Positions 5,251 through 28,799 of a stretch of DNA of 64,000 nucleotides are shown one piece after another. The stretch is from Blasia pusilla (Eukaryota). The notes below the pieces were generated by a model, which was not told the DNA's origin, searched no databases, and was given only the letters and a program-made list of their open reading frames with translations. Numbering within the stretch: the stretch's first letter is position 1; every line of letters starts with the position of its first letter. Where the stretch lies: NCBI GenBank assembly GCA_050084515.1, contig CM114271.1:49600001-49664000 (forward strand). The letters run 5' to 3'. Position numbers and translations under genes: made by a program.

Positions 5251-7385
5251 TCGATGTCACTATCACGTCTCTTAGGATAGATCGGTGAGATCTAGTAGAG
5301 CGCCTTCATGAGTAGCAGAGGACAGGCTCAATAGATCGAGGATGACCTGTTGAGGCCCTGGGAAACTTGAGAGAGCAGGTTTCCCCTTCGTTTCGGCTCA
5401 TTTGGAGCCATATTGAGGAACTTACTATTTTAGGTAAGTACCATTTTGAGTATGTGATCAAATTTCTATTTTAGGTAAGTGGCCCTTGGCTTCCTACATC
5501 AGGTCAAGAGCCACGGAGGTGACTTGGGAGCATAGGTTACCATGGAGAGAGTTTGGGAGAGGGGAGGGGTATACCTCAAGGAGAGAGAGCTTGAGAGCTT
5601 GATAGCTCATTCTCTCTTTGTTGAACCTCTTGGCATGAGGCGGCGGAGCTATGGTCTTGATTGTCTTGTATGTGTAACCCAAGCCTCTCATTAGGAGAGT
5701 GGGTTTGGTTTGACATTGAGAGAGACATGTGAGAGTGCACACATGTGAGAACTATGGTGTTGTGAGAGAGATTGGATCTTACTTTACAAAGAGAGAATGA
5801 GAGAGTGAGAGAGCTTCATGGGGGAGCTCGCTGGTCACTCGCTAATTTTTCAGGTTGGGGACAGTGTTCCTTGTTCAGCGACTCATGGGAGTGCTCACCG
5901 GAGCAAGGGCTGCTTTGATTGTTCTTTGCATTTGCCGATTTTTTGTGTGAAAGAGTGGCGCATGGAAGCGCTGCCCAATTTCTGATAGGGATTGATTATG
6001 TGGGCAGATTTCCCCATGCTGGTGCTCCTAGGAGCACCATGTTGCTTGCTGATTTGTATTTTTACAGGTTTGACATTTTCGTTGGGAGAAATCAGCGCGG
6101 AAGCGCTGCCAAATTTTGTGTAGGAGAAAGAGACATTGGGCTTTACGACAGTCCCTGTCTGTTTTTACTGGAATGTTTGATTCTAAATATTTTTTGATGT
6201 TGTCGTAGATCGTGAAGCTGTGCACGTTGTGCAACAAATAGCGCGCAATTTGGAGTTGAGAGCAAAAAGTTATGGTCAATCTTGCAAAATTGCCATTGCT
6301 AGACGATTTTTAGGGTTAAATTGTTCAAACCCTAAACCAGTCGCCACGCCGGTGGCGGCCGTCGCCATTATAGTCACCTTCAATGGTCCTCCGTTGATGT
6401 TCAACCGTCACCTTTAATGGTCAACCATCACCATCAATGATCAACCGTCATCGTCACCGGTCGGTCGTTACCATCAACGGTCAACCGTCACCGTCAACCG
6501 TCCATCGTCCGTTGTCCACCTTTTGGTTGCCATTGCCACCATTATGGAGTGGAGGGTCTTCCACGACGTTCGTTGATTCTCTGACTTGCCTCGCCACCAC
6601 GTACTTTATTTTGGCCGCCATCGTCATCGCAGTTTTGTCATCAATCAGTGATGGCACATGACCTCCGATTATGGTGTTTGAGTTTTGATTTCATGCTGCT
6701 ATGTTGTGATTGGTAGCCACTCGACGATTATTGAGTATCGTGCCGTGACGCTCGTAGCTGCAACGCGCCTCCGATTGCGCGACCGTGCCGCTCGTGGCCG
6801 CACCGCACCGTCTTGATCGCGGAACTGCTCCTTCACTAAGGAGCAGAGCGTGTGAATTGCTGATTGAGGAGGGTATGCCGTCGAGTGCCACACCCCATTC
6901 CCGAGTGTTGTGCTGTTTGTAGCCGTTCCGTGCCGCACCGGACCGCTCGACTTGCACCGCACATCGAAGAGGTTGAGCAGCGTCAGTACGAGAGGAATAC
7001 GACTTGCTGATTGGAGGAGTTGTCTTCACGCCCAAGTTGGGATCGAGATTTGCAGTTTCCGAGGAGTGACACCGACATTATTGTCAGGTTACCCATTTTG
7101 GTCTCTTACCCTGCCGTGTGAGGGATTTCGGAATATTGGGAAGTTATTTGGGATATTGGGTTTCGTGTTGATGCTAGGAGCATCGATGATGTATGGGTTT
7201 AGGGGACATAGACCTGTGTGGGATGTCCAAAGTTGAGGATGGTTTGTGGATGAGACGATAGATCAGTGATTTGCCGCACCACGCTGCTTATTGCCGCACA
7301 ACACACGTCTCAGTGAGAGAGTGTAGATTGAGTGCCACATGTTTAGTTTGAGTGATTGAGGGATTACTCGCGAGATTGAGAGTGA

Positions 7386-8890
7386 TTGTGTGAGAGGGGC
7401 ATGAGGGCCATCACGGCGTCCTTTCAGGATTTTGAGAGACGAGGTAGTGGATCTAAGAGTAGCTCTGGAGGGTTTACCTGGAGTGGTGCGAGGTTTCGAG
7501 GGTCTCCACGTGAGAGACTACATGGATCTCCTTCTACGTTATCTTCAGACAAGGGGGAGCGTATAGAGGAGTTTAGTGATCCACTGTACACATTGAGTGG
7601 TCCTACCAGTTGGGCGTACGAGATGGACGACCGGGGTAGAGGACGGCGTAGGTTTTCGGGTGTTGTAGGCACTATAGAGCTACACAACTTCATTGCGGAG
7701 TTTAGGAGTTGGTGTGACTCACAACGGGCTAGGAACTCTAGAGAGTTCAACCTATTTACAACATGGAACGGTATGTTCCAGCATTTAGAGGGGGCGCCCA
7801 TGGACGATTACTATGAGTTCTCCAATAGATATGCCCAGGAGATTGAGGCTTGGCGACTCTACTATGACCCACACTATGTGTCATGGACGGAGCCGTTCCC
7901 AGATGAGGAGGAGTCAAGAGAGGCTACTTCCTCTTCAACTAGTGATATTTTAGGAGGGGTCACTCGCACTGGAGCAGTTGCACCATCTAGTCGGGTTCGT
8001 CCTAGGTTCAACCTTGTGGTTGAGTTCTTTGCTGAGTTGAGGGCAAGCTACCAAGGGGTACGGACGGAGAAGTTTCAGAGCATCCACGACTTTCAGAGGC
8101 GCCCAGGTGAGAGTTTGCGTGAGGCTTACACTCGCTTGCGTCGGTGGATCAACGTCACTCAGGGGTTGACAGAGGCTCATCTATCCAGTCATGGTACGCG
8201 ATGCTGGATCGGACCTTGCGAACACTGGTACGGGAGGGGATGCTTCTTATGAACACCTCCCCTAGGTTGAGAGATGTTTTTAGGACCGGCGAGAACATTG
8301 AGCGCAACATGGCAGAGGAGAGCGTAGCCACCATAGGTTCTGGGCGAGAGCAGTCACGATTGTTTGCACCACTTGTGCAGCAACGTGGACTCTGAGATAG
8401 GTTGAATGTGGCACCACGAGATCAGGGAGGATACCGGGAGGCCTTACCACAGAGACCTGCACCTTCATATGCGGCTCAACAGCTGCCGCCTACTATTACT
8501 TGTTGGTCATGTGGTGGAGCCCATCATCAGCGAGATTGCATTTGTCAAGGTCACGGATGTGTGCCTCAACATGGAGGAGGAGATGGTACTGCACTAGGAG
8601 GTTATCAGTGTGACTATTGTGAGAGGTATGGTCATACACGTGCAAGGTGTTTCAATTTACATCCTGAGTTATGTCCGGACCGAGGGCGAGAGAGGGCACC
8701 AGAGCGAGTAGCCGGTCTGGGTGGGCCTAAAGATCGTGCACCAGGTGGTCCCGTTGGGGGACGAGGAGCTAGAGTTGCCCGACAGGGTGATGGAGCTTCC
8801 CGTGGAGGAGGTAGAGTCCCACCACCTACACGCGTTGAGGGAGATGCTGGACATGAGGCTAGGATGGCTGCTCAAATACATCAGCTATAA
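7386..8890 (+). pseudogene. Gypsy gag (retrotransposon gag domain + two CCHC knuckles), frameshifted
   Basis: FQRRPGESLREAYTRLRR gag motif; knuckles CWSCGGAHHQRDC and CDYCERYGHTRARC. Confidence 0.8.
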
Positions 8891-9579
8891 GAGCAGATTG
8901 CCGCTATGGCATTGAGATTACCCGATGCTGGATCCGTGGCATTGACATCATATGGAGCAACCAGAGATATGGAGAATCGTGGTTGGATGTACGGGGTTGC
9001 CCAAATGGAGGCCGCTGCAATTGTGACGCGTGGAGCAGCCACAGAGTGCGATCCACATCGAGGGGAAGCCAGGAAACAGACTAGGCTTCCTCAGTCTTTC
9101 ACGTTGTCAGAGGCGATGAGGACCCCATCAATGGGTCCTGATCAGATTTCTTGGAGGGTTGGTGATGTTGTTGGTGTCCAGGAACGGAGGGCAATAGGAG
9201 AAGCGAGTGCGACAACTCCTATTGTTGATGCTCAGGAGGGGCATGTGTCGAGCACGTTGTTGGGGGTGGCCACCGTTGTGTACCGCACTCTTTTACTTTT
9301 TGCTTCCGATGTTATGACGTTGGGAGGTATGCCCGCTGAGGTTTTTTGGCTGGCCGCTACGCTATGTGAGCATGGAGTTGGAGTTCTTGCATCACTTTCA
9401 GAGGTGATTGTAGAGAAGGTGATGGACCTGCCCTTGGAGCGGATGCTCGGGCCGTCCACGTCAGATTCATGGGAGGTTGCGACTGCTAGGATGGCGGAGA
9501 TGCCTGCTAGACCGGCGATAGAGCCTGCCATGGTTTCTCCTGATGTTAAGTTGATGGATAACCAGGGAGAGGTCTTCTA

Positions 9580-9990
9580 GTTGGTGAGTCCCGGAGGTAG
9601 AGCTTGTAGTCCGCAACGCGTCTTGTTGGATTCAGGAGCGCAACCCCTGATGTTGGCGAAAGCGTCATTCAGAGGATTGGGCTTGACGAGAGCCGATGTG
9701 GAGCGTTGTCCATTCCGGATACAAACATCCTTGGGTGGAGCGAGTACAACATAGTATATCACCCGACAGGAGGTCGTGGTGAGGATTCTCCCGGGACATC
9801 CTATAGATGAGTCCGTGGTGCGAGCCAAGACAATAGTGACTGATGTAGAGTCCTACGACGTCTTGGTTGGTGAAGCAGTGTTATACCCGATGGGTTTTTC
9901 CCTGGATTATTGGGAGGAGTCAGCGTCCTAAAGACCAGGATGGCAGTCAGGTGACGGGCGCCTTAGCTCATTACCCGTTCGATTCACGGG
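9580..9990 (+). pseudogene. Retroviral-type aspartic protease
   Basis: RVLLDSGAQPLML at ~9617-9655 and a downstream YDVLVG motif at ~9853. Confidence 0.75.
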
Positions 9991-10329
9991 TGCAATGATT
10001 GAGCGACGGCCAGGAGAGGTGGCGACCTTAGCAGCATTTAGCAGTGCCATCACTTGGCCTAGTGGTTTGATTGAGGGACATGTTCATGCAGAGGATACTC
10101 CCGTTCTTGACATTTCTATGGAGAGGAGTGTCATGGTAGGCGCATCAGTTCGTGGAGGAGAGGTGCCGCTTTGGGGCTCGACTGAGGATCTTTGACGCTT
10201 AGCCACTGAGCATGTACAGACCGCGTTGAGCAAGATATTTGCACTAGAGAGTGATGGGTCAGAGGAACCCAAGGTAGGCAGGAGTGCTGCTATGACCCCT
10301 TTGGACACCACCCCGATTGTGTGGTGCAT

Positions 10330-11290
10330 CCCAGAGAAGGGTATTCGGGTGTTGGATCTCTTTGGAGAGATCAACATTGGGTTAGCTGTTGTTTTGCACG
10401 CTGGAGTGTGCGTGCAACAATACTTGTATGTGGAGATTGATGATGTTGGGAGGCGCGCTTCACTTCACCATGTGGCGCTGTTACGCCTTCATTTTCCCGA
10501 CTGGTTGTCTGGGTCCACCATTAGGGTTACCAGAATTCCCTACCAAGGGACATTTCATTGTTGGGGGCGCAGGACTTGGAGTGGGTAAGGACCATAGGCT
10601 TGGTCATTGCTGGTTGGCCGTGTCAAGGCCAATCGAGTGCTGGACGAGGTAGCAGGTTATCTGACACTCGGTCCAGGTTTTTTTGGGAGATGATGCGGAT
10701 CTTGTAATATTTACATGAGCATCAGTCTCGTTCTCCATCATACATTTTGGAGAATGTGCCAATTTTGGGCGATTCGAGGTCCCGTGTGGTGACGAGTGCA
10801 CATCAGGTGTGCGCATGGATCGGCTCGGCATTGTTGTTAGATGTAGCGAGTGTGGGTTCATCGCCCACGTCTTTGGTGGACCAACTTGGTACCACATGAG
10901 GTATTGCGGAGGGCTTATGCGAGAGTGGAGCGTCCCTCCAATTTGTTGGTGGATTCTATATTGGATCCGGGCCGTCGATCACAGGCAGTGAGGCACGATG
11001 ATCGACCATCGTTGACTGTGGTCAACAGGATTGGCATGCCACAAGCCGCCTTTCCCACATTGGTGAGTTTCCCCGCTTCCTATGCATTCAAGGAGGCTGG
11101 ACCTGGCTTGGTTTGGGATGACCAGGTATAGGTTGATGGAGCCCAATGCCGATGAGCGAGAGTGAGCGATGGGATTCCCCACAAGAGTGACGGCATTATC
11201 GTCACTATCGGAGGCATCACGACGTCATGTCTTGGGTCAGGCGATGGACCTGAACTGCTTGACATGGATTTTTAGCTTAGGATTAGCTGA
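10330..11290 (+). pseudogene. C5-cytosine DNA methyltransferase domain (DNMT3-like) inside Gypsy pol
   Basis: Ordered motifs across frameshifts: I GIRVLDLFGEI (~10340), II YLYVEID, IV LVIAGWPCQG (~10600-10629), VI YILENVP (~10741), VIII HRPRLWWTNL (~10859), IX EPNADERE.AMGFP (~11139), X HVLGQAMD (~11226). Confidence 0.9.
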
Positions 11291-11599
11291 GCAACGTTGT
11301 TGAGGATGCGACAGATCACAGTTTTTGCGTTGGTGAGCCCCATGCCTATCGAGACGGTTGAGGCAGTGGCTGGGGGCGAGACCCGAGGAGATCGACACAC
11401 CAGGGGTGATCGGGAGAGACATCCTTGGACTTCTTGGGATGTTTTGCAAGTACGCCAGGAGATGATAGCCACAACATCAAGCGTGGTTTTGGGTACTGCA
11501 TGTGGAGATGGGAGTTTTATTGTCCGAGATGGGGTTGCACCATAGCAACCATTGACATCCGCGCTAGAGAGTCCTATCGTAGTCACGATGGAGACTTGG

Positions 11600-14300
11600 G
11601 AGCTAGATACGGGCCCTAAGTTGATAGGAGGAGAGCGGCGTCGGATACACCAGTTCCTTAGGAGTTATAGGAGTTGTTTTGCATTTAGTATGCATGATTT
11701 GGGTACACTGAAGGGTCCAGGATCCACATTGAGTTGTCGAGTGACACGCCGATCTTCCGATGATCCTATAGGTACAGTGACATGGAGAGGGCTCTGATTT
11801 AGAGTAGGATCCAAGACTTGGTTGGAGCAAGACTAGTGGAGATGTCGCATGGAGAGTATGCATCTACCATTGTCATGCCCGCCAAGAAGGATGTGCATGG
11901 CAACTGGATGGATAGGTGAATGTGTGGAGATTACTGACCTATCAATTGGCAGACAAAGGCCGATAGGTATGCCATGCCCACCCTTGAGGAGATCTTTGAT
12001 GCGATTGGGCAAGCAAAGATCTTCAATTTATTGGATTTGCGATGCGAATACCATCAACTGCCTATTAGATTGGAGGATAGGCAGAAGACGGCATTTTGGG
12101 GCATCGATCCTCACGGGAAGGATTGTTTGTACCAATGGTGGTTCTTACCATTCGAGTTAAAGAATGCCATGGATGAGTTTCAGAGGGTCATGGATAGGAT
12201 CTTGGCAGGTCCGGATTTTGCTAGGTGTTATATTGATGACATCGTAGTCTTTAGCGCCACGATTGAGGAGCATGAGCGACATCTAGAGGAGGTATTTTGA
12301 CGATTGCAGTTACATGGGCTGAAGCTACATCCAGGCAAGTGCAAGTTCTTCTACGACCAGATTGAGTACTTGGGTCATACGATATACCTTGGGAGCCTTG
12401 GTGTGCAACAGACGAAGGTAGAGGCTATTTCATGCATTCCACGCCCTACAGATGTGAGTCGAGTTCGTGCATTCATGGGATTGGAGAACTTCTATCGACG
12501 GTACGTCAAAGGTTTTAGTTCGATTGCAAAGCTGCTAACCTTAATGACCAAGGTGGATCAGGAGTGGCATTGGGGGGATGAGCAAGAGAGAGCATTTCAC
12601 ATGCTCAAGGACTGATTGACGTGCGCGCCCATATTGAGGAGACCGATCAAGGGTCGTCCTTTCTAGTTGCATACCGATTGGAGCATGTTGGGGCTTGGAG
12701 CCGTGCTTACCCAACATGATGATGATGGTTGAGAGTTCGTGGTGGCTTATGCTAGTCGCTCAAACAATGCTGCAGAGGCAAAGTGTAGCTCGTATGAGGG
12801 TGAGTGCTTGGCTGCAGTGTGGGCTGTCGCACATTTCAGATGTTATCTATTCGGCAATCCTTTTACCATCATTACTGATCATCAACCATTTAAGTGGTTG
12901 ATGGAGTTTGACAAGCTTACAGGGAAGCTTGCAAGATGGGCTCTTTTTTTGCCAGAGTATGACTTCCAGGTGATGCATAGACTTAGGATGCTCAACTAGG
13001 ATGCAGATGGTTTGAGACGTAACCCATGCCCCAGTCAGCGAGATGCACTTGGAGCTTGTTGGCATGATGAGAGTGATGAGGAGTTGGTGCCATGATGGCA
13101 TGCGTCAGCCTATTTGGGCTTGTTGGCTATCGAGCGCCAGATTGCGGAGTCTTCGATGGCGAGGTATGATGGAGAGTCCTTAGATATAGAGGCCGGTGAG
13201 GAGACGACAAATGGCCGAGACATTCACGACAATGGAGTGATCTTGGAGTACCTGAGTAGTGGGAGCGTTGCGAGCACAGTGGGTTCTAGAGAGCAGGATC
13301 GGATCCTACAACAAGCCAGACGGTTCTGGTGGGAGGGCACACATGTGTTGCGAGTGTGGGAGGATGGTAGAGTGCGTGTAGTGCCTCATCCTTCGCAGAG
13401 AGCACGTTTGGTGGGTTGGGTCATTTTGGAGTGAAGCGGACGTACAACTTGCTCTAGATTCAGTATTGGTGGCGAGGCATGCAGACTGACGTTCATCAGT
13501 TTGTTGCCAGATGCATGGTGTGTGATCGAGTCTGAGCATCGTTCAATGCTCCAACTCCACAATTGCATCCACTTTCGATCATGGGTTTAGGTAATAGATG
13601 GAGTTTGGATTTTGCAAGACCTTTGCCTTTGACGGAGCGCCATAGTCGTTATGTGTTGGTGATGGTCGAGCACTTCTCGGAGTGGATAGAGTTGGTTGCA
13701 TTGCGTGACAAAGCGAGTGAGGGAGTTGCGTATGCCTTCCTAGATCGAGTGTTGAGTCATTATGGCGCACTAACTAAGGTGTTGACAGACTAGGGTACAA
13801 AGTTCCGTGGGGAGTTTTAGGCCTTGTGTGATCAGGCACTGATCGACCACCGCACTACTTCGCGAGATCATCCTGAGGCGGATGGACTAGCGGAGCGGGT
13901 TGTGCAGATGGTGAAGAGAGGACTACACAAGTATGGCTTGTAGAGAGGTCACCTAGGAGATTGGGACCTTCAGTTGCCGTGGTTGGCAATGGGATACAGA
14001 TTCAGCAAGCAAGCATCCTTAGCGTCTTTCTCACCGTACTTGTTGCTTTAAGGCCGAGAGCCAGATTTACCAACGGCCATTCGTCAAGATACTGGTGAGG
14101 TATTGAACCTTGATGACCTTGATATATGGATGCGAGCATGTTCTGAGAGGGCTGAGTTGTTTCGGAGAGTGATGCCCATGGCGTTTGAGAACTTGGTGAT
14201 TGTCCAACATCGGGATACGTTGAGGTATGCGACTATTCGGGGAGGTGGTTATTGATCTACTATCCGGAGGTTTCATTAGGAAGACTATGTCTACTTGCAG
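11600..14300 (+). pseudogene. Gypsy RT - RNase H - integrase (multiple stops and frameshifts)
   Basis: LDLRCEYHQ, LPFELKNA and CYIDDIVVFS (RT); VAYASR, YEGECLA and TDHQP (RNase H); WSLDF..YVLVMVEHFSEWIE..VLTD (integrase). Confidence 0.92.
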
Positions 14301-14501
14301 CAGATGGCATCCACGATGTTGGATGTGTCTGCAGGGCGTACCATCTTGAGAGTGCGTAAGATTTTGCCATCCGGTCTTCTCTTATTGGAGGGACGTAATG
14401 GTATGATTTGGAAGGACCATGTGCGTAACTGTACGCCATGTCATCTTCTGAACATTGACGGTATAGTTGATCCGAGCTTAGCAATAGTTCCTACAGGCTT
14501 G

Positions 14502-14644
14502 CGGTGTATGTTGTGTGGTTCCGCCCGTGGTGCGCCACTATGCTAGTCTGTGATGGGTGTTCGAGAGGATGGCATATGGCATGTTTGACGCCACCTCTCA
14601 CTAGAGTTCCTCAGGGACGATGGATGTGTCCGAGATGCACATAG
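14502..14644 (+). pseudogene. PHD finger at C-terminus of Gypsy integrase
   Basis: CMLCGS..(frameshift)[33 protein letters not shown] matches the C4HC3 PHD consensus. Confidence 0.88.
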
Positions 14645-17600
14645 AGTAGGTAGTTCTACATTTTGACTTATGTTTGTGACATGGATGACAAGAAGGCGAC
14701 TAACGATGGGGCCACATGAGCACCCGGCCTTCTTGCTCTTAGCGTCCGAGAGATGTATGTCATGGTAGGTAGGGATAGATGGCTATCTGGAGTTAGAGGG
14801 ACCTAACCATCAGGTAGGGGGGCGATTGGAGATATTTGGTACTTCTTGTCTCGTTGTTTGGATGCCATGCGCTAGCATGGGATCGTACATGTTTGTGTGT
14901 GTGTGTTTGGTGACATCGATGTATGTTGTGTAGCAATATGTATGCACACGACATCACTCTATAAGGAAAGCGCTATGTGTGAAATTGCGTTTAGGAATCT
15001 ATGAGCACATTTAGGAGAGTCTCTGCTGTTGGTGAGTTTCGTCGTTAGGGGGGGGAATGCCCCCTTCTTCCTTTTCTGGTCCTGTTGTGGCCTTCAGGTT
15101 TTGACTCTTTGAGTCCCCCTCTTTTGTACTTCCGATGGGTTTTCCATCACTCGTTTTTATCGAAGTGCATCTTCGCCTGTTTAGGAGAGAAGGAGGTCCA
15201 AAAATCCAAAGAACTTTGGAAAACTCAATCTTAAGTGGAAAAAAGAAGACCCCAAATTAAGTTCAAGCTTGAGAAGATGAACACGTTGGGCCTTAGATTG
15301 AAAAGATTGGATCACCATAGAAATATTTCCAAGCAAAAGTCCAGACATCCCTCCATGTCCTCCGCCATAGTTTTCGTTAGAGATCAATTGCAAACTAGAC
15401 AATTTTCCAATGGCCAATGTGATAAAATGAATCGGTCTTTCACAACTATTTTTGGTTACTTGTTAGTCGAGGTCTCTAGGACGTTGGGCCATTTTCACTC
15501 CCAAAACTTTGGTCGTAGGAAAATTGGCGACTTGGCATGCATGGGATCCCGTCATTGGAGGTTTGTTTTGAGAGCTTGGGTCTAGATTGGATGATTAGGG
15601 AGGGGGAGGGAGGGTAATCGGTTTGGGTGTAGGAACTTAAAAGATTTATGTCCATATGGAAATGGTACAAGGGGACTAGCAATCGAGACTAATCAACTAG
15701 CATATGAGTTAGTTAACACAAGTCTATCTCAAGAGATGGCTACATCTAAGGGTTGGGAGAAACACTAGCTCATATGATGTGATGATATGGCCAACTAAAA
15801 AACTTGACAAGAGAAAGGAAAAACATTAAAATAGTCAACAAAATTCAAATCAAAAGCAAAAGAAAAGAGAGTTTATTTTCCACTAAGATAAGTTTTAATA
15901 GAAAAATTTTAAATATTTTTAGCAATAGTCATGGAGAAATAATTATTGGAAACATGTCACATCATAGTTAGGCAACATGTAAAATTCCATTATGTTGATG
16001 ACAAAGAGAGTCAATGGGTTGTTGGGGCTAAGTTCGTTTTAAGATGTTGGATGAGGTTGGAAACATTTCCGTTGCATTGAGATATTTTTTTACTACTTTT
16101 TCTTTTTTGCTATTTTGGACCATGTGACCCAGTGATTGAGTCAATAGTCACATGGAAACTTGTGTGCACAAGTTATCATTTTTCGACCATTTTTGGGGAA
16201 GAGCTCTTTTGGCTCTTCTTAGGGGTATAAAGGAGATGGGGATGTCTTTCCAAGCCATCTTTCTTATGTTAAGCCTTTGGAGCATTGTGATATCTTAGTT
16301 AGACAACATGTAGAGTTATACCGCGTCGACGGCACAGAGGTTCAGTTGGTTGTTCGGGTGTAACTTCGTCCTGAGATGTCAAATGAGGTTGGTGACAGGT
16401 CCGTTGCATCGAGAACATTGTTTCTAAATATTTTGCTATTTTGGTCTTTGTCAGCCACGTAATCTGTTGACGGAGTCAATGGACACCCGAAAGCATGTGC
16501 TCGCAAGTTACCATTTAGAGGTGGATGTGGCTCGATATGCCGATGTAGATTTAGGAGTGTAGTTTTACGCCATGTGAGCAATTTTTACTCTGATTTTACA
16601 TGAGAAAGATGTCCGGGGTCAGGGGGAATTTTATTGTATGCAGGTTGGCAAGCAAGTTTCCTCCTGTGGGGAGACTCTGGTTGGGTAATGTGTTGTTTTT
16701 TTTCCATACAAAAGACCGTGCGCGGAAGCGCTGCTCATTTTTCACAGATTTTGGCCGGTAAAGGACTAGGGTAGAGCAATAGCACAATGACGAGTAGGAG
16801 CGCTTGGACGTAACGTGTACATAGCAGCGTCAAGGTAGTGGCGCTTGTTGGGAGAAAGAGTTTTGAGTAGGTCTTGCAACCGTCGGAGGGCTGTCAAGTA
16901 AGGCCGCTAGCTAGGCATCTAGGGTTAGATCATAGCCGTATTCACAGGTAGGTACATACGCGTGTTATATGATAGGAGATGCAGATAGATGGGAGATGCT
17001 ATGTCCCTTCCTTCCTTGTTCCTTGAGAGAGGAATAAGGAAGGAAGGGATAGAGTCACATAGGGGTGGTTGAGTATTATCGGGTGACGTGGAGTCACGTA
17101 GTGTCCAACTTGAAAGGAAATCTCCAGAGCCTCATAGGGACATGTGCCCAAGGCATTAAGGCTAGTATAAGGGTTCCAAGAAGGAGGGGCCTAGGGCACA
17201 TGATTGCGAATGGAGCGTTGCGGGGTTGGGAGGTATGCAGGCTCTAGAATAGACGAGTTGTTGCATAGGGCCGCATGTTGGAAAGTGGCATGAGATGGGT
17301 AGATGTGGGAGTACATAGGGAAGTGTGTGGAAGGAGTTGGGAAGAGCTCCAATATTAGGGGAGTTTCTTTGGAAGCCGTATAGGCACACTAAATATAGAG
17401 GGAGGTGTGTGAACTCCAAGTAAGGTGATAGAGAGTTGAGGCCACTGTACATAAGGCTGGGGGCCCAAACGGAAAAATGGCTGTGGGCTGGACACTTGGA
17501 GCTAGAGCGCATAGGGATGCGCACGTGTGCAGAGTTGGGAGAGCTAAGTAACTAAGTTTGGAGGGAGTTTTGGGCTAGGAAGAGGTTTTCATGGTAGATG

Positions 17601-17969: not shown

Positions 17970-20900
17970 TGTCACGTCTGTTAGGATAGATCGACGAGTT
18001 CTAGTAGAGCGCCTTCAAAAATACTGGAGGAAAACCTTGAGAGGTCAAGGATGACCTGCTAAGGATATAGGTAAGTTGAGAGAACACGTATCCCCTTTGT
18101 TTTGGCTCATTTGGAGCCATATTGAGGAACTTAAACGCCTGACTTCGTGGAGTCAGGCGTTTGCACCAGAGCGTGATGGATTAGAGGAACCCGAGGTAGC
18201 CAGGAGTGCTACTATGACCCCTTTGGACACCATCCCAATTGTGTGGTGAATCCCAGAGGAGGGTATTCGCGTGTTGATTCTCTTTGGAGGGATCATCATT
18301 GGCTTAGCCGTTGTTTTGCAGGCAGGAGTGGGTGTGCAGCAGTACTTATAGGTTGAGATTGATGATGTTGCAAGGCGCACTTCACTTCACCATGTGGCAC
18401 AATCACGCCTCCAATTTCCCGGTTTGTTGTCTGCATCCTCCATCCACGGGTACCAGAGTTCCCTAGCCTACCGAGGGACATTTCATTGTTGGGGGCGCAA
18501 GACTTGGAGCATGTAGGGACCATAGATTTGGTCATTGATGGTTGGCCGTATCAGGGCCAATCAAATGATGGATGAGGTAGCGGATTGGCTGACTCTCGAT
18601 CCAGGTTTTTTTGGGAGATGATTCGGATCTTGCGACACTTGCAGGAGAATCAGTCCCGTTCTCCAACATACATTATGGAGAATATGCCGATTTGGGGCAA
18701 TTCGAGGTGCACGTGGAGGAGATGATATGCAGTTGGCTGCAAGGGAGCAGTCCATTCATGTTTTTCGAAACAAGGTTGCACCCTAACAACCACCGATACC
18801 CTTGCCGGAGAGTCCTATCGTAGTCACCATGGAGACTTGGGGGCCAGATATGGGCCCTAAGTTGACAAGAGGAGAGCGATGCCAGATACATCAATTCCTT
18901 AGGAGTTATAAGAGTTTTTTTGCATTTAGTATGCATGATTGATACATTAATCTTGTTGTTGCGAAAGCGTGCGTTCAGTAGTTCACGCTCTCAATACTGA
19001 TCAACATCCAAACATGCACTCTTGTTAGTTGGGTCTTGGATAAATCAGCGGGCTAACTTTTTGAGTTCTCGTCTCGGTCTCTCATCAAGCTCAACCTTCC
19101 TTGTTTTGTGGTTTACAACACGAGCAAGTCTCAAAAGACTTGTAACAAACTTTCTTGTTGGTTCAGGAACCTTAAATGGCGTTTCGCGCCTAGCAGTTCC
19201 AACTATCCGATGGACATCCAATGAATTCCTAACCGAGACTCCCACAAAGTGAATCTCGGGTTGGAATCCAAGTGTGGCATACAAAGTCCACTTCCTTGGA
19301 TCACGTTTGGGTTTCGAGTTCCAGCGCCAAACTCCCGTTCCATCTCGTGCCTCTAAGATGCCTTTTGGTGCTCAAAGTGGGGATTCGTTCTCCAAGACAT
19401 CTTGGAAAGACTCCTCGCTTACTAGTACTTCTGGGAATCTCCAGGGTTCCCTACATTTAGGGAAAGACACCCGGGCCTCTCCAATTGGCCCTCAACCCGA
19501 TTGCTCTCACAATCATTTTTGGCCAATATCTCAGTCAGACGTTTGCTAAGATCTTTAGTGCATTAGAAGCATCTCAAGATAAGCTTACCAACTCGCCCTT
19601 AATTGTCCCAAACGCATCATGGGGCTAAACGTTATGGTCCAAAATACAATCAAATTCCCCAAACGCTAGCCGTGTTCCAAAACTGGTTCTCACCTCTTTG
19701 GCAACTAACCTTCCAAGTCTCAACTCATCTCAAGTCCTGGCTCGCCTTTGATCTAGGTTTCCTAGTCGTAATCACTAACGCATGAAACATACAACTCTAT
19801 TCCGCATTTCGTCTCTTGGACTTTTTCAAGAGACCTTTCCAAAAGCCTCTCCAAAGCGCGAACATCGCAGTGTGAGTCCACTTGAGTTCTAATGTTACGC
19901 TTGGCGCCTATTTGGTGTTGTTTGGTTATGAGGGTTGGAGCAGGTATGCTGAAGGGTCCCAGGATCCCCATTGAGTTATTGAGCGACATGCCGATCTTCC
20001 GATGACCCTACAGGTACAATGATATGGAGAGGGTTTTGATTTAGAGTAGGAGCTAGGACTTGGTTGGAGCAGGACTAGTGGAGATGTCGCATGGAGAGTA
20101 TTCATCTACTACTATCATGCCTGCCAAGAAGGATGTGCATGGCAACTAGACGGATAGGCGGATGTGTGGAGATTACCGACCTATCAATCGACACACGAAG
20201 TTTGATAGGTATGTCTACTTGCAAACCTGAGGAGATCTTTGATGCTATTGGGCATGCAAAGGTTGTCAGTTCATTAGATCTTCAAGCCAGATACCATCAG
20301 CTTGAAGGACAGGTAGAAGACGGCGTTTTGGGGCATCGATCCTCATAGGAAGGATTTCTTGTATTAGTGGCAATTCTTACCATTTGGGTTAAAGAACGTT
20401 GCGTCTAAGTTTCAAAGGGTCTTGGATAGGATCTTGGCAGGTCTGGATTTTGCTAGATGTTATATTGATGACATCGTAGTCTTTAGCGCCACGATTAAGG
20501 AGCATGAACGATATCTAGAGGAGGTATTTCGACGATTGCAGTTTCATGGGCTAAAGCTACATCAAGGAAAGTGCAAGTTCTTCTACAACCAGATTGAGTA
20601 CCTGGGTCATACAATATACCCAGGTGGCCTTGGTGTGTAGCAAGAGAAGATAGAGGCTATTCCATGCCCTACAAATGTGACTCGAGTTCGTGCATTCATG
20701 GGATTGGCGAACTTCTATCGACGGTATGTCAAGGGTTTCAATTCGATTGCAAAGCCGTTGACCTTGTTGACCATGGTGGATCAAGAGCGGCATAGGGGGA
20801 TGAGCAGGAGAGACTATTTTGAATTGCTAAAGGAACGATTGACGTCCGCCCATATTGAGGAGACCAATTAGGGGGCGTCCTTTCCAATTGCATATAGATT

Positions 20901-21529
20901 GGAGGATGTTGGAGCTTGGAGCCATGCTCATCCAACATGACGATGAGGATAGAGAGTTTGTGGTGGCTTACGCTAGTTGCTCGAACAATGGTGCAGAGGC
21001 GAAGTATAGCTCGTATGAGGTTGAGTGCTTGGCTGTAGTGTGGGTTGTCACGCATTTCAAGTGTTATTTATTCGATAACCCCTTGACCATTATTACTGAT
21101 CATTAGCCACTTAAGTGGATGATGGAGTCCAACAAGCTTATATGGAAGCTTGTGAGGTGGGCTCTATTGTTACATGAGTATGATTTCCAAGGGGTGCATA
21201 CACTTGGGACGCTCAACCAAGATGCAGATGGTTTGAACTGTAACCCATGCTCGAGTCAACCACATACGACTGGAGCTCAATGACATCGAGAGTGTGATGA
21301 GGAGTTAGTGCGAGGAGGACATGCGTCAGCCTATTGGGGCTTACTGGCTATGGAAAGCCACATTGTTCATACTTTGATGGCGAGGTGTGATGGAGAGTCC
21401 TTAGATCTAGAGGTTGGTGAGCAGACGACAGGTGGCCGAGATATTCACGAGGATGGAGTAGTCTTGGAGTACCTACATATTGGCAGCGTCACGAATACAG
21501 TGGGTGCTACAGAGTGGGATTGGATCTAG
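17970..21529 (+). mobile_element. Second, internally deleted copy of the DNMT-Gypsy family
   Basis: LTR-start homology at 17970-18133 to 5261-5424. DNMT fragment at 18140-18730 (GIRVLILFGGI, IDLVIDGWPYQG, YIMENMP). RT/RNase H at 19945-21529 is collinear with ~11700-13300. Confidence 0.85.
18940..19942 (+). mobile_element. ~1-kb solo-LTR-like insertion (copy 1)
   Basis: Interrupts otherwise contiguous gypsy sequence (..atgcatgatt | ggtatgctgaaggg..). Has TG...CA ends and is the reverse-complement homolog of 43690-44666. Confidence 0.7.
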
Positions 21530-24500
21530 GGGGGGACACTCTATGTATACCTCCTACATCACCTACCACATTTTGGGGTCGGAAACCCCTAACTTATAAG
21601 TGAATTTTTTTTCCTCCCCCTTACTTACTTTAAAACCATATTTAAAAAAATAATTTATGACCCCTATATTTTGTTAAGTAAATTTGTGTCCTTGATTTTT
21701 TCAGGGGCTTGAAAGTAAAGATAAGTACCCCTTCGCACAACGGTCTTGTATTGTTGCACTTGATAATAGGCTATTAAAAGCTTTCAGCAATACCCAAGCC
21801 ATTGCCAAACATAGTAATGATATGTAAGGTGGAATTATCTGCATGTTTCCATTGAATCAATATTTAGTGCAACTTCCACTTTCCCCATTACTTTGACACC
21901 TATGATGGAGAGGAATTGAACCTCAGTATCGGCCGGATGCTCATATGGCCATGCCGTCATCCCCCTAACCTATCCCCTCCCAAAACTAGCCTATCATAAA
22001 CTCAAAAAATGACTTCACACTATAACATGCACATCACTTGGGAAAAGACGATACGCTGCGGATGTAATCATTGATCACTCGTAAATCACAGTTATCCAAT
22101 TCATATATCCTGACTGTAAGACTTGGCTTCATGGGCAATCTCACATTTGAAATCACCATTTCAATGTCAATATATTGGCCATCACATGCATCATATGTGA
22201 ACAAGGTGTTGCTCTTACCTGTGCGCGAATACCAATTGCACAATATCTGACAAACACTGCCTATCTGTCCATCTTTTGGGACAGGTTGGTCCAAAAGATC
22301 AATAGGAGATCTACATCTATCCCATTGACTACCGTATTTTTGTTTGATGAATAGAATGCGACCTAATCAAAACTCTTTTGTAAGGACTATTCTGTTCTCA
22401 TCTAAGTCTTTTTTTTCTTCTCTTCTTTGACTTACTTGATCTAGTAGATGGTCCAACTTGTGTAGTAGACTAAAAAAAAACAGGGGGGCTGGTATTCTGG
22501 CAGGAGAGAGTAAGAGAGGAGAGGAAGAGAGGAAGAGAGGAGAGTCTCTCTTAAAGAAAAAGGGCCAAATCCGCCTCCTCTCTTCAAAACTTTTTGACAT
22601 ATTTGAAATTTTTTTTGGGCTTTCAAATTCATGAAATCTTTAGAAGAGAGTAGGTAGTGGTCCACATTTGGCCCTAAAAAAACCTCCTTTTTCCTGGGGG
22701 CCAAAAAAAAGTAGACATCATAAGACCACTACAAAATTTTTTCCATCACTCTCCATGTGAGCCTAAGTTTCTTAACATTACCTGTCTCGGTCTACAAAAA
22801 GCAGTGCCCATGGGTATTTTTGTTGGAGGACCACCCGGATGCCAACCTCTCTTTTTGCAGGGATTGTTTCCTGCATCATGGCCTCCCCTCAATTGCCCCA
22901 TAACCAACTTTTGTTGGTTATGAATCGTGTCTGCTCAAGACCAAAATTGTGAAATGTGAACACATGAGAGGATAATTGAACCAAAAGATTGTTAGTTGTT
23001 TGGAGTAAAGAGGAACTGATGTCCCTTCATTCAGATCCTAAGGCTGAGAAACCGAGAAGCTGCACCCCTCCCAACCCGTAAGAAAGCTCACCATAAGAAA
23101 GGAAAGATTTTTAGAAGTGATTTTCTTCCACCCTGCATCCACGACGATCTAACAGGTTGGGAATCCGAAATGGCAATCCGACAGGTAGTAGGAATCCTGC
23201 ACATCTTAGACAAGAAAAGAAGCCTACAACTGGTTTGACGAATGTAGGGGAACGAGCCAAACGTTAAGAAGCCCGCCACAATGCATCAGAAGTTGGTCTT
23301 ACAGGGAAAGAGTCCGATCACTCAAGCAGTCAACCTGTCGGAATCCGACAGCTTGCCTGGAAATGGTTGAAAAGTTGCAGTGGGCAAAAAGCAAAAAGTT
23401 GCAACCCGTCGGAATCATACAGGTTGCAAAATTGTAATTCTGAGTAGCTAAAAGAACACAATCCACAAGTCCAACAAAATATTCCAGCAAACTTTTACAA
23501 ACACCATTATGGGTTGAAAAAATCTCGTCCTTTATTACCTCCGAAGGAACCTCGGAAATGTACATTTGACCTAGTCTATGATTTCTTCAGCCTCGTCATC
23601 TACACATTTACTCCTAACTCTCCTCGGTGACAGTACAAAAGGAATGTCCTAGGATACAAGTGGCTCCTCTGGCCGATTGTAGACGGGGATAAAAAATGTT
23701 GGCGAATTCGAGAGCCTTGGCCCCCCCCTAGGTACGCCATAACGGTCCCATGTAACCTGATTTGAGTCCCACCACCTTCCTCAGCAGTATACCTTGTACG
23801 CTCTGCAATGTGACACCCATCCAGTATCAATATGTGCTCCGTCCTTGGTAATACCATGATGGCAATTGCACAGGTAGTAGGAATCCAACACGTCTGAGAG
23901 AAGAAAAGAAGCCTACGCTTTGCAATGCGAGTTGAGGGAAGGTGCCAAGGGAAGAAGCCCTCAGATCGCCTCTTAAGTTGGACCAACAGGAAAGAGTCAA
24001 TCAGCGACTGTCGGAATCCGGCTGGGTTGCGTGGAAGTGGTAAAAAGGTGCTGTCGTCAAAAAGTGAAAAGTTGCAAGCAGGAGAAATCCGACGGGTTGC
24101 AAAATAGAAGTCCGCGGAGTACATAGACGATCACATTTGAAAAGACATAAAAAATGTTCAGCAAACTTTTACAAGCACCACCATCATCGTTCGAAAAAAT
24201 CTTCTCCTTTATATCATCTGAAAAAAGCTCGAAACTGTACATTTGATCTATTCTATGAAATCTTTTGCCTCATCATCAAAAAACTCCCTACTCCAAACGC
24301 TGCAGTCAAGCTAGGTCGTTGAGTTCTTTGAACTCACTCGTCATCATCCGAGAGCTCTTGCAAAATTACTTTCGGCCTTGCCCTCCCAATTTTCGGAATC
24401 GTTGGAAGTGACGATGGAGTCACTACCAATGGTGGGTCTGGAACCGGAGCTCTCGGCTTCGGTGGAGAGTTGTACGTCCCAACGAGCCTTTCGTATTTTG

Positions 24501-24939
24501 CATTTTCCTCCTTGCAAAGGTCAAACAGTTCCTGCCTTCCCTTGAGGTAGAGAATGTTCCTGCCACTCTGCTAGGCGCCTTTGATACTTGCCCCTCAAAG
24601 TCCCACTAAGTCGAACACCAAGTCACCCGGCCTTGAGCAGAGCTCGATGAGCGTTTGCATAAGGGCTGGTGATATTTCCCTTCCTCCCAGAAGTGGGGTA
24701 CTGTCTTGCATGTAAATTCCCGGGGGGGAATTGTACAAACTATCTAAGCTGTACCCATCTGAGCATGCATCCACAGGATCCTGGATCTTGAACACCTGGA
24801 AATTGTGCTCGGGCCGAACGAAGCAGTACACGTAGGAGTGGTCCATCTGTAAAGAGGCACGTTGGAAACAATGTCAGCAACTAAAGAAGTCGACTTGACC
24901 CTAGAGAACTTTTTCAATTACTAACTTTGGATCAACCTG

Positions 24940-25310
24940 TCAGAGTCCGACGGGTTGTTTTGTCCCTGACCAACCCGTCGCCTTCTGATGGGTTGGTCGG
25001 GACAAAACAACTTTCCGTCGGGCTCTCCGTTGTTTTTGTCCGTGAGCAACCCGTCGGAAGGCGACGGATTGCTGGCCTAGAGCAGCCCATGCTCGGCTGA
25101 GAGCAACCCGTCGCTTTCCGGGAACACAAGGAAAAACCAAAAGCAACTGCAACCCGTCGGGTTCCGACGGGTTGCAGGTACACCATGGTTTTCCCTGTGT
25201 ATCTGGGAAAGATGCAACCCGTCGGAAACTGACGGGTTGCTCTCAACCGAGCATGGGCTGCTCTAAGCCAGCAACCCGTCGCCTTCCGACGGGTTGCTCA
25301 CGGACAAAAA
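24940..25310. repeat. Intronic palindrome cluster forming a long fold-back
   Basis: Multiple CAACCCGTCGGNNNCCGACGGGTTG units; 25030-25115 is an inverted copy of ~25225-25310. Confidence 0.9.
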
Positions 25311-26554
25311 AAACGGAGATATACTATCTGAAATTAACACTCATTGAGCCTTACCCGAATTTGAAAATATATTTGAGATTATACTACAGGAATTGAGCCT
25401 TACCCGAATCTGACTCGTCGCGAATCGGAGTGGGTACTCATTTTTTATGATCCACGATTGCGCCAAATGGGGCAATTCTCCACCTCCCAATCGGACATGT
25501 GCTGCCCCATCTCCATGTCGTACATGGAGAATGTCTCTCCATCAGGCGGCGAAGCCCACAATTTCAAGGCTGCCGGTAATTTTCCCCAGGTACTTGCATT
25601 CTTACACTAGACGAGGTACCTGAAGACCATCCGTTGGGCAGCTTTTACTCGAACTGAATCGGCCGTCTGCTCTTGTAGATCTCGCTTCTTCTTTGCTTGA
25701 TCCCGCTTGTTCCCCTCGATTTCTTTGTCAAGCTCTGCCTGAGGGAGGACGCAAACCTTGAACATTGTCTTGAATCCTGGGTTTTTGATTGGCTTGTCCC
25801 GGATGTCGTCGAGCCAAACCTCGAAATCTATAGAACTTTCCAGGTTTGCTTCATCCGAAATGGGCTCTAATCTTTTGAGCTCCGCTTGTAGACCATCCAG
25901 CACGGACTTCCCGATAACCCGCAACGCGTCCCAGAATGACCATTCGCGTAGTCAGTGGGAGATCACTGGATCGGACATACCCGGAGGATGGTGTGCCGCC
26001 CTCTTCTGGGCCTCTGTGCCCTCGAGACTGATTTTCATCAGTCGGATCCTCCTAAACTCCCTTATGCCGGACAACGCAAACCGATGCACGCGATCCGGGG
26101 AACACTTTCTCCCCAATCCGACCTTGCGGATCTTCATCCTTTTCGGGCGCTTGATAATCGCCTTCGGCTCCTTGTAAAACTCCACCAAGTTCGGGGTTGA
26201 GAATCTTGATGTATCGCGCATCTTGCTAGCCGTGTATTTCGTGGATGAGATATCTGCGGCTTGATGAATTTCGCGCTCGGCCGGATACTTTCTCCCTCGC
26301 TCCGGCTCGGTCGGCGCTCTTCTTCGGGCTTTGTATCTTTCAGCAAAGGATGGTTACGGTTGCATCTTGGGAAATAAACTTATTTGCCCAAGTTTTCTTT
26401 TTTATCGAGCACCCTTTGCAAGCATCGATTTTGGCGTCGCCAAGAACCCCTTGTACTCTCCCGGGTGCGTCGTAAGCACCTTCTTCACCCGGTCGCAGTC
26501 CTGGATCCAGTGGTGGGTGACATTCCCCTCCGATACAATCCTGCACATCCAAAC

Positions 26555-28710: not shown

Positions 28711-28799
28711 CTTTTCTAGCCGTCGGGCTGACTGTTGGGTCCTGTTGTCCTTTCGACGGCGACGTGCCGCAGGTTACCGAAATCCGGACGTGAAAAAAT

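What the first reader, a model, noticed from the sequence alone, without database searches (positions are those of the whole stretch)
10330..11290. Gypsy retrotransposon carrying a full C5-cytosine methyltransferase within pol
Seen: all major DNMT motifs in order, including the catalytic PCQ, between protease and RT. The second copy has the domain too (18140-18730), so it is a family trait rather than a one-off capture. Known: DNMT-bearing retrotransposons have been reported in dinoflagellates and charophyte algae, and RPRLWWTNL resembles DNMT3-type motif VIII. Inference: a land-plant lineage of self-methylating retroelements that could methylate its cDNA or insertion site.
Basis: partly seen in the sequence, partly recalled or inferred. 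Interest (0 to 1): 0.8.

Follow-up and report, generated by a model that had tools for sequence, protein, structure and literature searches.

The report
Dead copy of DNMT3-carrying Gypsy retrotransposon
The window holds two decayed copies of a jumping gene that carries its own DNA cytosine methyltransferase, a kind known from a charophyte alga and here traced to liverworts and a moss, where it had apparently not been described.

Summary
Window 10289-11300 encodes a full-length C5 DNA methyltransferase domain with motifs in canonical order, between protease and reverse transcriptase. It is broken by three frameshifts and three stops. Copy 2 (18145-18722) keeps only the N-terminal ~45%, and its catalytic Cys is Tyr.

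The domain is a family trait. Collinear gag-PR-DNMT proteins occur in Marchantia, Calypogeia, Sphagnum, Closterium and Klebsormidium nitens. A clade with DNMT between RNase H and integrase fills chlorophyte algae.

Profile and predicted fold both rank DNMT3A/B/C first. dN/dS between the two copies is 0.40 for DNMT and 0.34 for RT-RH. In reads of the same species label, DNMT depth is 85% of gag-PR depth. About 3% of DNA letters lie on the element, and stranded RNA covers it.

Added features: a PHD finger after the integrase, and a conserved in-frame stop (TAG-CAA-CCA) between DNMT and RT.

Verdict: a dead land-plant member of the known Gypsy-DNMT3 kind. Methylation activity is untested.

The parts
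5263..7652 (+). Upstream non-coding part of copy 1 (5' terminal or leader region). The true 5' end is not determined.
   Evidence: 5263-5424 is 81% like 17972-18133, which abuts copy 2. Family DNA depth is still ~4,600 at 6000-6316. A 20-bp tandem repeat lies at 6401-6502.
7653..9283 (+). gag, with two CCHC-like zinc knuckles at about 8501-8653. Frame broken near 8162-8180.
   Evidence: tblastn with Marchantia Mp_4g09160 (P0006): 7653-8180 at 50% identity, then continuing from 8162. Pfam zinc-knuckle hits are weak and below cut-off.
9284..10120 (+). Aspartic protease region, active-site DSG at 9629-9637, with in-frame stops.
   Evidence: tblastn alignment to P0007 at 47% identity over 415 columns. 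P0007 has a weak Asp_protease_2 hit, E 0.0012, below cut-off.
10289..11300 (+). DNMT3-type C5 cytosine methyltransferase domain with motifs I, IV (PCQ), VI (ENV), VIII (RPRLWWTN), IX and X in order. Pseudogenised by 3 frame changes and 3 stops.
   Evidence: DNMT3 likeness of the family.
11543..11551 (+). In-frame stop TAG followed by CAA CCA, between the DNMT and RT parts. The same frame runs on both sides.
   Evidence: Copy 2 has TAA CAA CCA at 18784-18792. 7 liverwort-subclade proteins end at this place. UAG-CAR-YYA is the tobamovirus readthrough consensus (PMC3159437, passage read).
11698..13353 (+). Reverse transcriptase and RNase H.
   Evidence: Pfam RVT_1 on 11938-12300 (E 5.8e-11) and RT_RNaseH on 12733-12999 (E 1.1e-24). 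tblastn with P0018 covers 11698-13353 at 57%.
13380..14470 (+). Integrase (zinc-binding part and catalytic core), frame broken.
   Evidence: rve hit on 13536-13793, E 1.5e-6, 28.8 bits, below the 32.6 cut-off. tblastn with several relatives covers 13419-14522 at 38-47%.
14471..14641 (+). PHD finger at the C-terminal end of pol.
   Evidence: PF00628, E 9.7e-10, 38.8 bits against cut-off 24. Nearest solved PHDs are listed. Relatives L001, L002 and L004 show the same position.
14642..15190 (+). 3' terminal region of copy 1. Family read depth ends near 15190.
   Evidence: DNA depth falls from ~4,700 (14876-15192) to ~510 (15193-15500). No internal or terminal repeat was detected.
17972..18133 (+). 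Copy 2: a piece like copy 1's 5263-5424, joined directly to the DNMT. gag and PR are missing.
   Evidence: 81% over 162 nt.
18145..18722 (+). Copy 2: N-terminal ~45% of the DNMT domain (motifs I-VI), catalytic Cys replaced by Tyr, frames broken.
18774..21526 (+). Copy 2: linker with TAA stop (18784-18786) and RT-RNase H, interrupted by a ~1-kb foreign insertion at 18939-19935. Truncated after 21526.
   Evidence: blastn against copy 1: 11533-11699 matches 18774-18940 (86%), and 11702-13305 matches 19943-21526 (82%). 18939-19935 matches 44667-43694 (80%).

Best explanation
Window 5263-15190 is an old, dead copy of a Ty3/Gypsy-type retrotransposon. Its layout is gag - protease - DNMT3-type methyltransferase - (in-frame stop) - RT - RNase H - integrase - PHD finger. 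Window 17972-21526 is a second, more damaged copy.

The element belongs to the streptophyte Gypsy-DNMT3 lineage first described in Klebsormidium nitens. Relatives occur in Closterium, Sphagnum and the liverworts Marchantia and Calypogeia. The window's DNMT clusters with the two liverworts.

Shown here: homology, domain order, DNMT3 likeness, conservation of catalytic residues across the clade, purifying selection on the DNMT comparable to that on RT, high copy number, and sense transcription of the family in the source species.

Inferred mechanism (about 40% likely). In live copies the DNMT is made as the C-terminal part of the abundant Gag-PR polyprotein. RT-RH-IN-PHD is made by occasional readthrough of the stop in UAG-CAR-YYA context. 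The DNMT methylates the element's newly made cDNA, or the DNA around the new insertion, de novo. The PHD finger on the integrase steers insertion to a particular chromatin state. New copies would then enter or create silent chromatin with little cost to the host.
For: Collinearity. tblastn with Marchantia Mp_4g09160 covers window 7653-11443 in order.

Family trait. Of 315 DNMT-bearing relatives classified, 58 have PR-DNMT-RT, 197 have RT-RH-DNMT-INT(-PHD), and 60 are DNMT-only fragments. Named hosts with the PR-DNMT layout are Marchantia, Calypogeia, Sphagnum fallax, four Closterium strains and K. nitens GAQ93235.1.

DNMT tree (86 rows). Window + Marchantia + Calypogeia form one group at SH-aLRT 100.

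DNMT3 type. The profile against PDB gives DNMT3A 3e-22, 3C 1e-19, 3B 9e-19, tobacco DRM 2e-15, AtDRM2 5e-11, HhaI 2e-9, DNMT2 1e-3, and no DNMT1 or CMT. The AlphaFold model has pLDDT 90.9. Every Foldseek match listed (to rank 50) is DNMT3A/B/C, best E 6e-17, TM 0.67/0.77.

Selection. dN/dS between copy 1 and copy 2 is 0.40 for the DNMT (174 codons; shifted-frame controls 1.62 and 1.29). For RT-RH it is 0.34 (297 codons; controls 0.60 and 1.11). Marchantia P0006 keeps 14 of 14 invariant positions.

Reads at 80% likeness or more. Mean DNA depth is 6,020 over gag-PR, 5,119 over DNMT, 8,444 over RT-INT-PHD and 510 over the flank. 3.0% of the letters read from the DNA run lie on the stretch. All three RNA runs cover the DNMT at 43-64, about ten times more on one strand than on the other.

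Stop. TAG-CAA-CCA in copy 1 and TAA-CAA-CCA in copy 2, in frame. 7 relatives' proteins end at that place.

PHD..

Terminal repeats. Relatives L001 and L004 have A...B-A-B repeats right after the PHD. That arrangement is described for KnitGypsy-Dnmt3 in PMC5890265 (figure legend read).
Against: No enzymatic activity, methylome or insertion-site data were available, so the mechanism is inference only. In PMC5890265 the authors themselves call the role of such DNMTs unclear (Discussion read).

Both window copies are dead. Copy 1 has lost the motif I Gly and 2 other invariant positions.

No terminal repeats, and no tRNA-iMet-type primer site, were found for copy 1.

No host DNMT3 or DRM sequence could be put in the tree, and its root rests on 8 prokaryote-type enzymes, 6 of them with about a third of the columns filled. 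Common descent with the Klebsormidium elements, as opposed to repeated capture, is therefore not proven.

DNMT depth is only 61% of RT-INT-PHD depth, so some family members lack the domain or have diverged in it.

The strand of the RNA rests on the usual library convention, not on a record.

Readthrough is inferred from sequence context alone.

The window's organism is coded, not named.
Confidence: 0.85

Rival explanations
1. Independent capture. Bryophyte Gypsy elements took a host DNMT3 on their own, separately from the Klebsormidium elements, so the likeness is convergent.
For: DNMT capture by retrotransposons is recurrent (PMC5890265, abstract and passages; preprint 10.64898/2026.05.21.726589, passages). 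Two different DNMT positions exist within the clade. No host DNMT3 was in the tree.
Against: The same PR-DNMT-RT position is seen in Closterium, Sphagnum, the liverworts and the window; the partial K. nitens protein has its DNMT at the C-terminal end with no RT on it, so it is consistent only. All element DNMTs share clade-specific conserved blocks such as AGWxCQ..S.AG and AHRxRxxWTN. The relatives also share the C-terminal PHD and the A...B-A-B repeats.
Confidence: 0.1
2. The DNMT domain is a non-catalytic structural or nucleic-acid-binding module of the polyprotein (a pseudo-enzyme), or it acts on RNA rather than DNA.
For: PMC5890265 reports that a SymbioLINE DNMT did not methylate DNA in yeast and suggests an RNA role (Discussion). 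An earlier scan note, not checked here, describes a catalytically dead C5-MTase-like fold in a diatom Gypsy.
Against: The catalytic Cys-Gln, the ENV Glu and the motif VIII Arg residues are invariant in the 14-sequence alignment and at least 80% conserved across 184 relatives. Marchantia P0006 and P0007 keep 14 of 14 invariant positions. The fold matches DNA-bound DNMT3A/B best.
Confidence: 0.15
3. Chance juxtaposition. A host DNMT3 pseudogene happens to lie next to, or was interrupted by, an unrelated Gypsy insertion in this window.
For: No terminal repeats delimit copy 1.
Against: Window 7653-11443 is collinear with single predicted proteins of Marchantia. Copy 2 repeats the same DNMT-linker-RT junction. 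DNMT read depth is thousands-fold and tracks gag-PR. Hundreds of polyproteins carry the domain.
Confidence: 0.01

Closest known systems
KnitGypsy-Dnmt3 of Klebsormidium nitens (de Mendoza et al. 2018, PMC5890265)
   Same: A Gypsy-type element with an unrearranged DNMT3-type domain in its polyprotein. The DNMT is under purifying selection. A K. nitens protein (GAQ93235.1) matches the window's DNMT in four collinear pieces, E 2e-28, and sits in the same element clade. The A...B-A-B repeats described for it are present in window relatives L001 and L004.
   Different: The hosts here are land plants (liverworts, Sphagnum). Identity to the K. nitens DNMT is only 23-49%. The window copy shows no terminal repeats. 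The PHD finger and the conserved in-frame stop after the DNMT do not occur in the paper's main text (0 occurrences of 'PHD'; figures and supplements not seen). Whether GAQ93235.1 is one of the published copies was not checked.
Chlorophyte Gypsy elements with RT-RH-DNMT-INT-PHD (Haematococcus, Monoraphidium, Chromochloris, Chlamydomonas eustigma, Scenedesmus proteins)
   Same: Homologous DNMT at 33-44% identity, and the same C-terminal PHD finger.
   Different: The DNMT sits between RNase H and integrase, not between protease and RT. These elements form a separate group in the DNMT tree (SH-aLRT 94).
Host DNMT3A/3B/3C and plant DRM
   Same: Best sequence-profile and fold matches. Motif VIII AHRxRxxW aligns with that of DNMT3A.
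   Different: About 22% identity. Pfam finds no PWWP or ADD domain in the same protein. The motif order is canonical, unlike the rearranged DRM (motif order in DRM is recalled knowledge). It is encoded inside a mobile element.
SymbioDIRS-Dnmt3 of Symbiodinium
   Same: A DNMT3-type domain inside a retrotransposon polyprotein, with A...B-A-B repeats (PMC5890265).
   Different: Those elements use a tyrosine recombinase (DIRS), not a DDE integrase, and the host lineage is unrelated.
Chromoviruses (Gypsy elements with a chromodomain after the integrase)
   Same: A chromatin-reader module at the C-terminal end of the integrase. The targeting role is stated for chromoviruses in preprint 10.64898/2026.05.21.726589 (introduction passage).

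Membership tests
Ty3/Gypsy LTR retrotransposon | pol order protease - RT - RNase H - integrase | tested here: met
   DSG protease at 9629-9637. RVT_1 and RT_RNaseH. rve and tblastn over 13419-14522.
Ty3/Gypsy LTR retrotransposon | gag with a CCHC zinc knuckle | tested here: inconclusive
   Cys-His spacing is visible at about 8501-8653 and is collinear with Marchantia proteins named 'CCHC-type domain'. Pfam hits are below cut-off.
Ty3/Gypsy LTR retrotransposon | flanking long terminal repeats | tested here: not met
   No direct repeat links the regions upstream and downstream of copy 1. Relatives L001 and L004 have A...B-A-B repeats instead of plain LTRs.
Ty3/Gypsy LTR retrotransposon | primer binding site next to the 5' repeat | tested here: inconclusive
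   A 12-nt tRNA-iMet-type motif (recalled) gave 0 matches at up to 1 mismatch. Other primers were not tried.
C5 cytosine DNA methyltransferase (PF00145) | motifs I, IV (Pro-Cys), VI (ENV), VIII, IX and X in canonical order | tested here: met
   Five collinear profile matches covering positions 5-353 of 376. PF00145 is above its cut-off on the motif IV piece. 11 of 14 invariant positions are kept.
C5 cytosine DNA methyltransferase (PF00145) | intact reading frame and catalytic activity | tested here: not met
   Three frame changes and three stops in copy 1, and Cys to Tyr plus a deletion in copy 2. Activity of intact relatives cannot be tested with these tools.
DNMT3 subfamily | closest to DNMT3 by sequence profile and by fold | tested here: met
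DNMT3 subfamily | placement inside the eukaryotic DNMT3 clade in a tree with DNMT1, CMT, DRM and DNMT5 | not tested
   No host DNMT sequences could be obtained. Only prokaryote-type outgroups were used.
DNMT3 subfamily | N-terminal PWWP and ADD reader domains | tested here: not met
   Pfam finds only PF00145 (plus a weak protease hit) in P0006 and P0007. A PHD finger exists, but at the far end of pol.
Gypsy-DNMT3 lineage (KnitGypsy-Dnmt3) | DNMT homologous to that of K. nitens elements, inside a Gypsy polyprotein | tested here: met
   GAQ93235.1 (P0153) aligns to window 10292-11276, E 2e-28, and lies in the same element clade.
Gypsy-DNMT3 lineage (KnitGypsy-Dnmt3) | DIRS-like A - coding - B-A-B repeats | tested here: not met
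   Absent from window copy 1. Present in relatives L001 and L004.
Gypsy-DNMT3 lineage (KnitGypsy-Dnmt3) | purifying selection on the DNMT | tested here: met
   dN/dS 0.40 between the two window copies, with shifted-frame controls of 1.3-1.6.

The most novel reading that the evidence does not exclude
Gypsy-DNMT3 elements may not be a Klebsormidium oddity. They may form an ancient clade persisting across green plants, from chlorophytes to liverworts and moss. Each element pairs a DNMT3-type 5mC writer with a PHD chromatin reader.

In the liverwort branch the writer is made in Gag-like amounts, upstream of a leaky stop. The elements would methylate their own cDNA or insertion sites, and could add to de novo methylation in bryophyte genomes. 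In one species they make up about 3% of the DNA and are transcribed.
Probability: 0.3. Interest if true: 0.75.

Novelty: new member of a known kind. Interest (0 to 1): 0.5.

Why it matters
DNMT-carrying retrotransposons raise a paradox: a parasite carries the host's own silencing enzyme. The published streptophyte case is one alga, and its authors read it as a capture in that lineage.

The same element type now appears in Closterium, Sphagnum and liverworts, including the genetic model Marchantia. It also appears as a major, transcribed family in the window's species. This suggests long persistence rather than a local accident. It also makes the function testable in a tractable plant.

The PHD finger and the stop-codon arrangement give concrete handles on how writer, reader and integrase are dosed and targeted.

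In six literature searches I found no paper describing these elements in liverworts or other land plants. Supplements of the survey papers could not be seen, so they may already list them.

Tried and rejected
- Whole genome of the window: none is held.
- Viral contigs scanned with P0007: 0 relatives.
- Metagenome scan: of the 80 loci kept (445 stretches passed tblastn), only L001-L004 are element relatives (E 5e-42 or lower). The other 76 match at 24-36% over about the first two thirds of the query. I took them as prokaryote or phage methylases without checking each one, and used 8 of them as the outgroup.
- Terminal repeats of copy 1: blastn at word 11 and word 7, plus Smith-Waterman. The best score was 31, against 23-27 for 10 shuffles.
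- tRNA genes: none found.
- tRNA-iMet primer motif: none found.
- ESM Atlas with P0001: it returned only generic PF00145 clusters, and no structure search was possible.
- Earlier scan notes: none for this genome or for look-alike sequence. One unrelated diatom note turned up.
- Sequencing-run index: no RNA holder listed for the 1,105-nt DNMT stretch.
- Gene-identifier search (six Marchantia ids): 0 papers.
- Long ORFs in 22-40 kb: 0 Pfam families in 8 of 8 tested.
- Rejected reading, host DNMT3 pseudogene beside a Gypsy element: contradicted by collinearity and read depth.
- Rejected reading, one-off capture: contradicted by hundreds of relatives.
- Complex prediction was not used, because no binding claim is made.

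Full report
**What is in the window**

Stop-to-stop frames and three-frame translations show a run of retroelement coding pieces on the + strand from about 7650 to 14650. tblastn with the Marchantia polymorpha protein Mp_4g09160 (P0006, 1,278 aa) covers 7653-11443 in order, at 39-64% identity. That protein reads gag, then protease, then methyltransferase.

Downstream, Pfam finds RVT_1 (11938-12300, E 5.8e-11) and RT_RNaseH (12733-12999, E 1.1e-24). It also finds an integrase core (13536-13793, E 1.5e-6, below cut-off) and a PHD finger (14471-14641, E 9.7e-10). The protease active site, VLLDSGAQPLML, lies at about 9620-9655.

Copy 1 therefore reads gag - PR - DNMT - RT - RH - INT - PHD.

**Checking the methyltransferase**

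I built a profile from the DNMT parts of 184 relatives, with no window sequence in it. I searched it against all 2,640 six-frame pieces of the window.

Copy 1 gives five collinear matches covering profile positions 5-353 of 376, with E-values from 1e-11 to 3e-35. The frame changes near 10524, 10858 and 11128. In-frame stops lie at 10705, 11129 and 11163. Pfam's own model passes its cut-off only on the motif IV piece; the other three pieces gave nothing.

With X placed at each break, copy 1 keeps 11 of 14 invariant and 21 of 23 near-invariant clade positions. These include the catalytic Cys-Gln, the ENV Glu and the motif VIII arginines. The motif I Gly is Glu.

Copy 2 (18145-18722) matches only profile positions 23-176 and has Tyr for the catalytic Cys. 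It lacks the part equivalent to about 10780-11520 of copy 1. It also lacks gag-PR and carries a 1-kb foreign insertion.

Nothing else in the window matches the profile.

**A family trait, and in which hosts**

- A 60-aa piece of the window found 14 proteins, among them several from Marchantia polymorpha and Calypogeia fissa.
- The DNMT part of P0006 found 60 proteins, including one from Sphagnum fallax.
- An exhaustive search with the Calypogeia DNMT (P0001) found 3,619 representatives at E 1e-3 or lower, and 198 at E 1e-30 or lower.
- Exact look-ups named further hosts: Closterium strains, Klebsormidium nitens (GAQ93235.1) and Scenedesmus.
- A search with a more distant member named Haematococcus, Monoraphidium, Chromochloris and Chlamydomonas eustigma.

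I classified 315 DNMT-bearing proteins by the order of their domains. 58 have the window's layout (PR-DNMT-RT), 197 have RT-RH-DNMT-INT, mostly with a PHD, and 60 are DNMT-only fragments. All named streptophytes have the first layout. All named chlorophytes have the second.

In a quick maximum-likelihood tree of 86 DNMT rows, the window groups with Marchantia and Calypogeia (SH-aLRT 100). The second layout forms one group (SH-aLRT 94). The root rests on prokaryote-type enzymes that are poorly covered, and no host DNMT3 could be included.

**DNMT3 type**

By sequence, P0001 matches DNMT3A best (9e-9), then DRM, then bacterial enzymes. Its motif VIII aligns with AHRARYFW of DNMT3A.

A 14-sequence profile gives DNMT3A 3e-22, DNMT3C 1e-19, DNMT3B 9e-19, tobacco DRM 2e-15, AtDRM2 5e-11, HhaI 2e-9 and DNMT2 1e-3. 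DNMT1 and CMT do not appear.

An AlphaFold model (pLDDT 90.9) finds only DNMT3A/B/C among the Foldseek matches listed (to rank 50), with best E 6e-17 and TM 0.67/0.77.

**Selection and abundance**

Between the two window copies, dN/dS is 0.40 over 174 DNMT codons. Out-of-frame controls give 1.62 and 1.29. Over 297 RT-RH codons it is 0.34, with controls of 0.60 and 1.11. The DNMT was therefore constrained about as much as RT while these lineages diverged.

I laid reads of the same species label on 6000-15500 at 80% likeness or more.

| Segment | DNA run, mean depth | RNA runs, commoner direction |
|---|---|---|
| gag-PR | 6,020 | 39-60 |
| DNMT | 5,119 | 43-64 |
| RT-INT-PHD | 8,444 | 152-179 |
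| flank beyond 15192 | 510 | about 0 |

About 3.0% of all letters read from the DNA run lie on the stretch.

All three RNA runs cover the whole element with about a tenfold strand bias. Under the usual library convention this direction means sense transcripts. Most reads are under 90% alike, so they come from other copies.

That test fails to refute the reading. The lower DNMT depth relative to RT leaves room for a minority of copies without it.

**Added anatomy**

- *A conserved stop.* A single in-frame stop separates the DNMT from RT. It is TAG-CAA-CCA in copy 1 (11543-11551) and TAA-CAA-CCA in copy 2 (18784-18792). Seven proteins of the liverwort subclade end at this same place, 70-95 aa after motif X. 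UAG-CAR-YYA is the consensus for efficient readthrough in tobacco mosaic virus (PMC3159437, introduction passage). More distant relatives have DNMT and RT fused in one frame.
- *The PHD finger.* It is nearest in sequence to CHD4, KAT6A, PHF12, KDM5/lid, PHF21A, ATXR5, AIRE and UHRF1 fingers. From recalled knowledge, several of these read unmodified H3K4. That is a lead, not a test.
- *Terminal repeats.* Metagenome relatives L001, L002 and L004 have PR-DNMT-RT-RH-INT-PHD. L001 and L004 carry A...B-A-B repeats directly after the PHD. This is the arrangement given for KnitGypsy-Dnmt3 (PMC5890265, legend).
- *What is missing.* The window copy shows no such repeats. Its 5' end was not reached.

**Mechanism**

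Everything above concerns identity and constraint. Nothing here measures methylation.

My preferred reading, at about 40%, follows the cDNA-methylation idea in the Discussion of PMC5890265. The DNMT, made with Gag-PR, methylates the new cDNA or the insertion neighbourhood. The PHD on the integrase chooses the chromatin.

Rivals are an RNA-directed or non-catalytic role (about 15%) and independent capture rather than shared descent (about 10%).

**Comparison and novelty**

The kind is known: Gypsy-DNMT3 in K. nitens. A 2026 preprint lists the previously described cases as 'streptophytes (Gypsy-DNMT3)'.

Six literature searches and passage reads of the Marchantia and liverwort papers they turned up found no description in liverworts or other land plants. 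Supplements were closed.

I file this as a new member of a known kind, of moderate interest. The window's copies themselves are relics.

Noticed in passing
window 11543-11551 and 18784-18792: A conserved in-frame stop between DNMT and RT, with the CAA CCA context that fits the UAG-CAR-YYA readthrough consensus. Relatives' predicted proteins end at the same place.
   Followed up: partly
window 14471-14641: A PHD finger after the integrase, in the position where chromoviruses carry a chromodomain. It is also present in relatives L001, L002 and L004 and in most chlorophyte relatives.
   Followed up: partly
window 42212-46160 and 52372-52702: Arrays of a satellite of about 180 bp (families D1-D4), interrupted at 43.7-44.7 kb by a sequence 80% like the insertion in copy 2.
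   Followed up: no
window 18939-19935: A foreign insertion of about 1 kb inside copy 2, 80% identical in reverse orientation to 43694-44667. Its nature is unknown.
   Followed up: no
window 22484-38000: Two copies of another long repeat unit, spaced 7.5-8.6 kb apart and 66-94% identical. None of the seven long ORFs tested inside this span had a Pfam family.
   Followed up: partly
window 47281-47808 and 49179-49781: A Copia-type fragment: a zf-CCHC knuckle and RVT_2.
   Followed up: no
window 51559-52294 (- strand): A third, truncated RT-RNase H fragment of a related Gypsy family, about 71% identical in nucleotides to copies 1 and 2. It has no DNMT match nearby.
   Followed up: no
window 7318-7372 and 11713-12787: RNA reads skip 53 nt (37 reads in three runs, 0 DNA reads) and 1,073 nt (45 RNA reads, 3 DNA reads). 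These could be spliced or deleted transcript forms of family copies.
   Followed up: no
window 6002-6116: 139 DNA reads 'go back' from 6116 to 6002 with about 20 extra letters, as if this piece were tandemly duplicated in other family copies. A 20-bp tandem repeat lies at 6401-6502.
   Followed up: no
relatives (proteins P0039, P0250, P0269 and others): A large chlorophyte clade has the homologous DNMT moved to between RNase H and integrase. 197 of 315 classified proteins have this layout. An earlier scan note reports a dead C5-MTase-like fold at that same position in a diatom Gypsy.
   Followed up: partly
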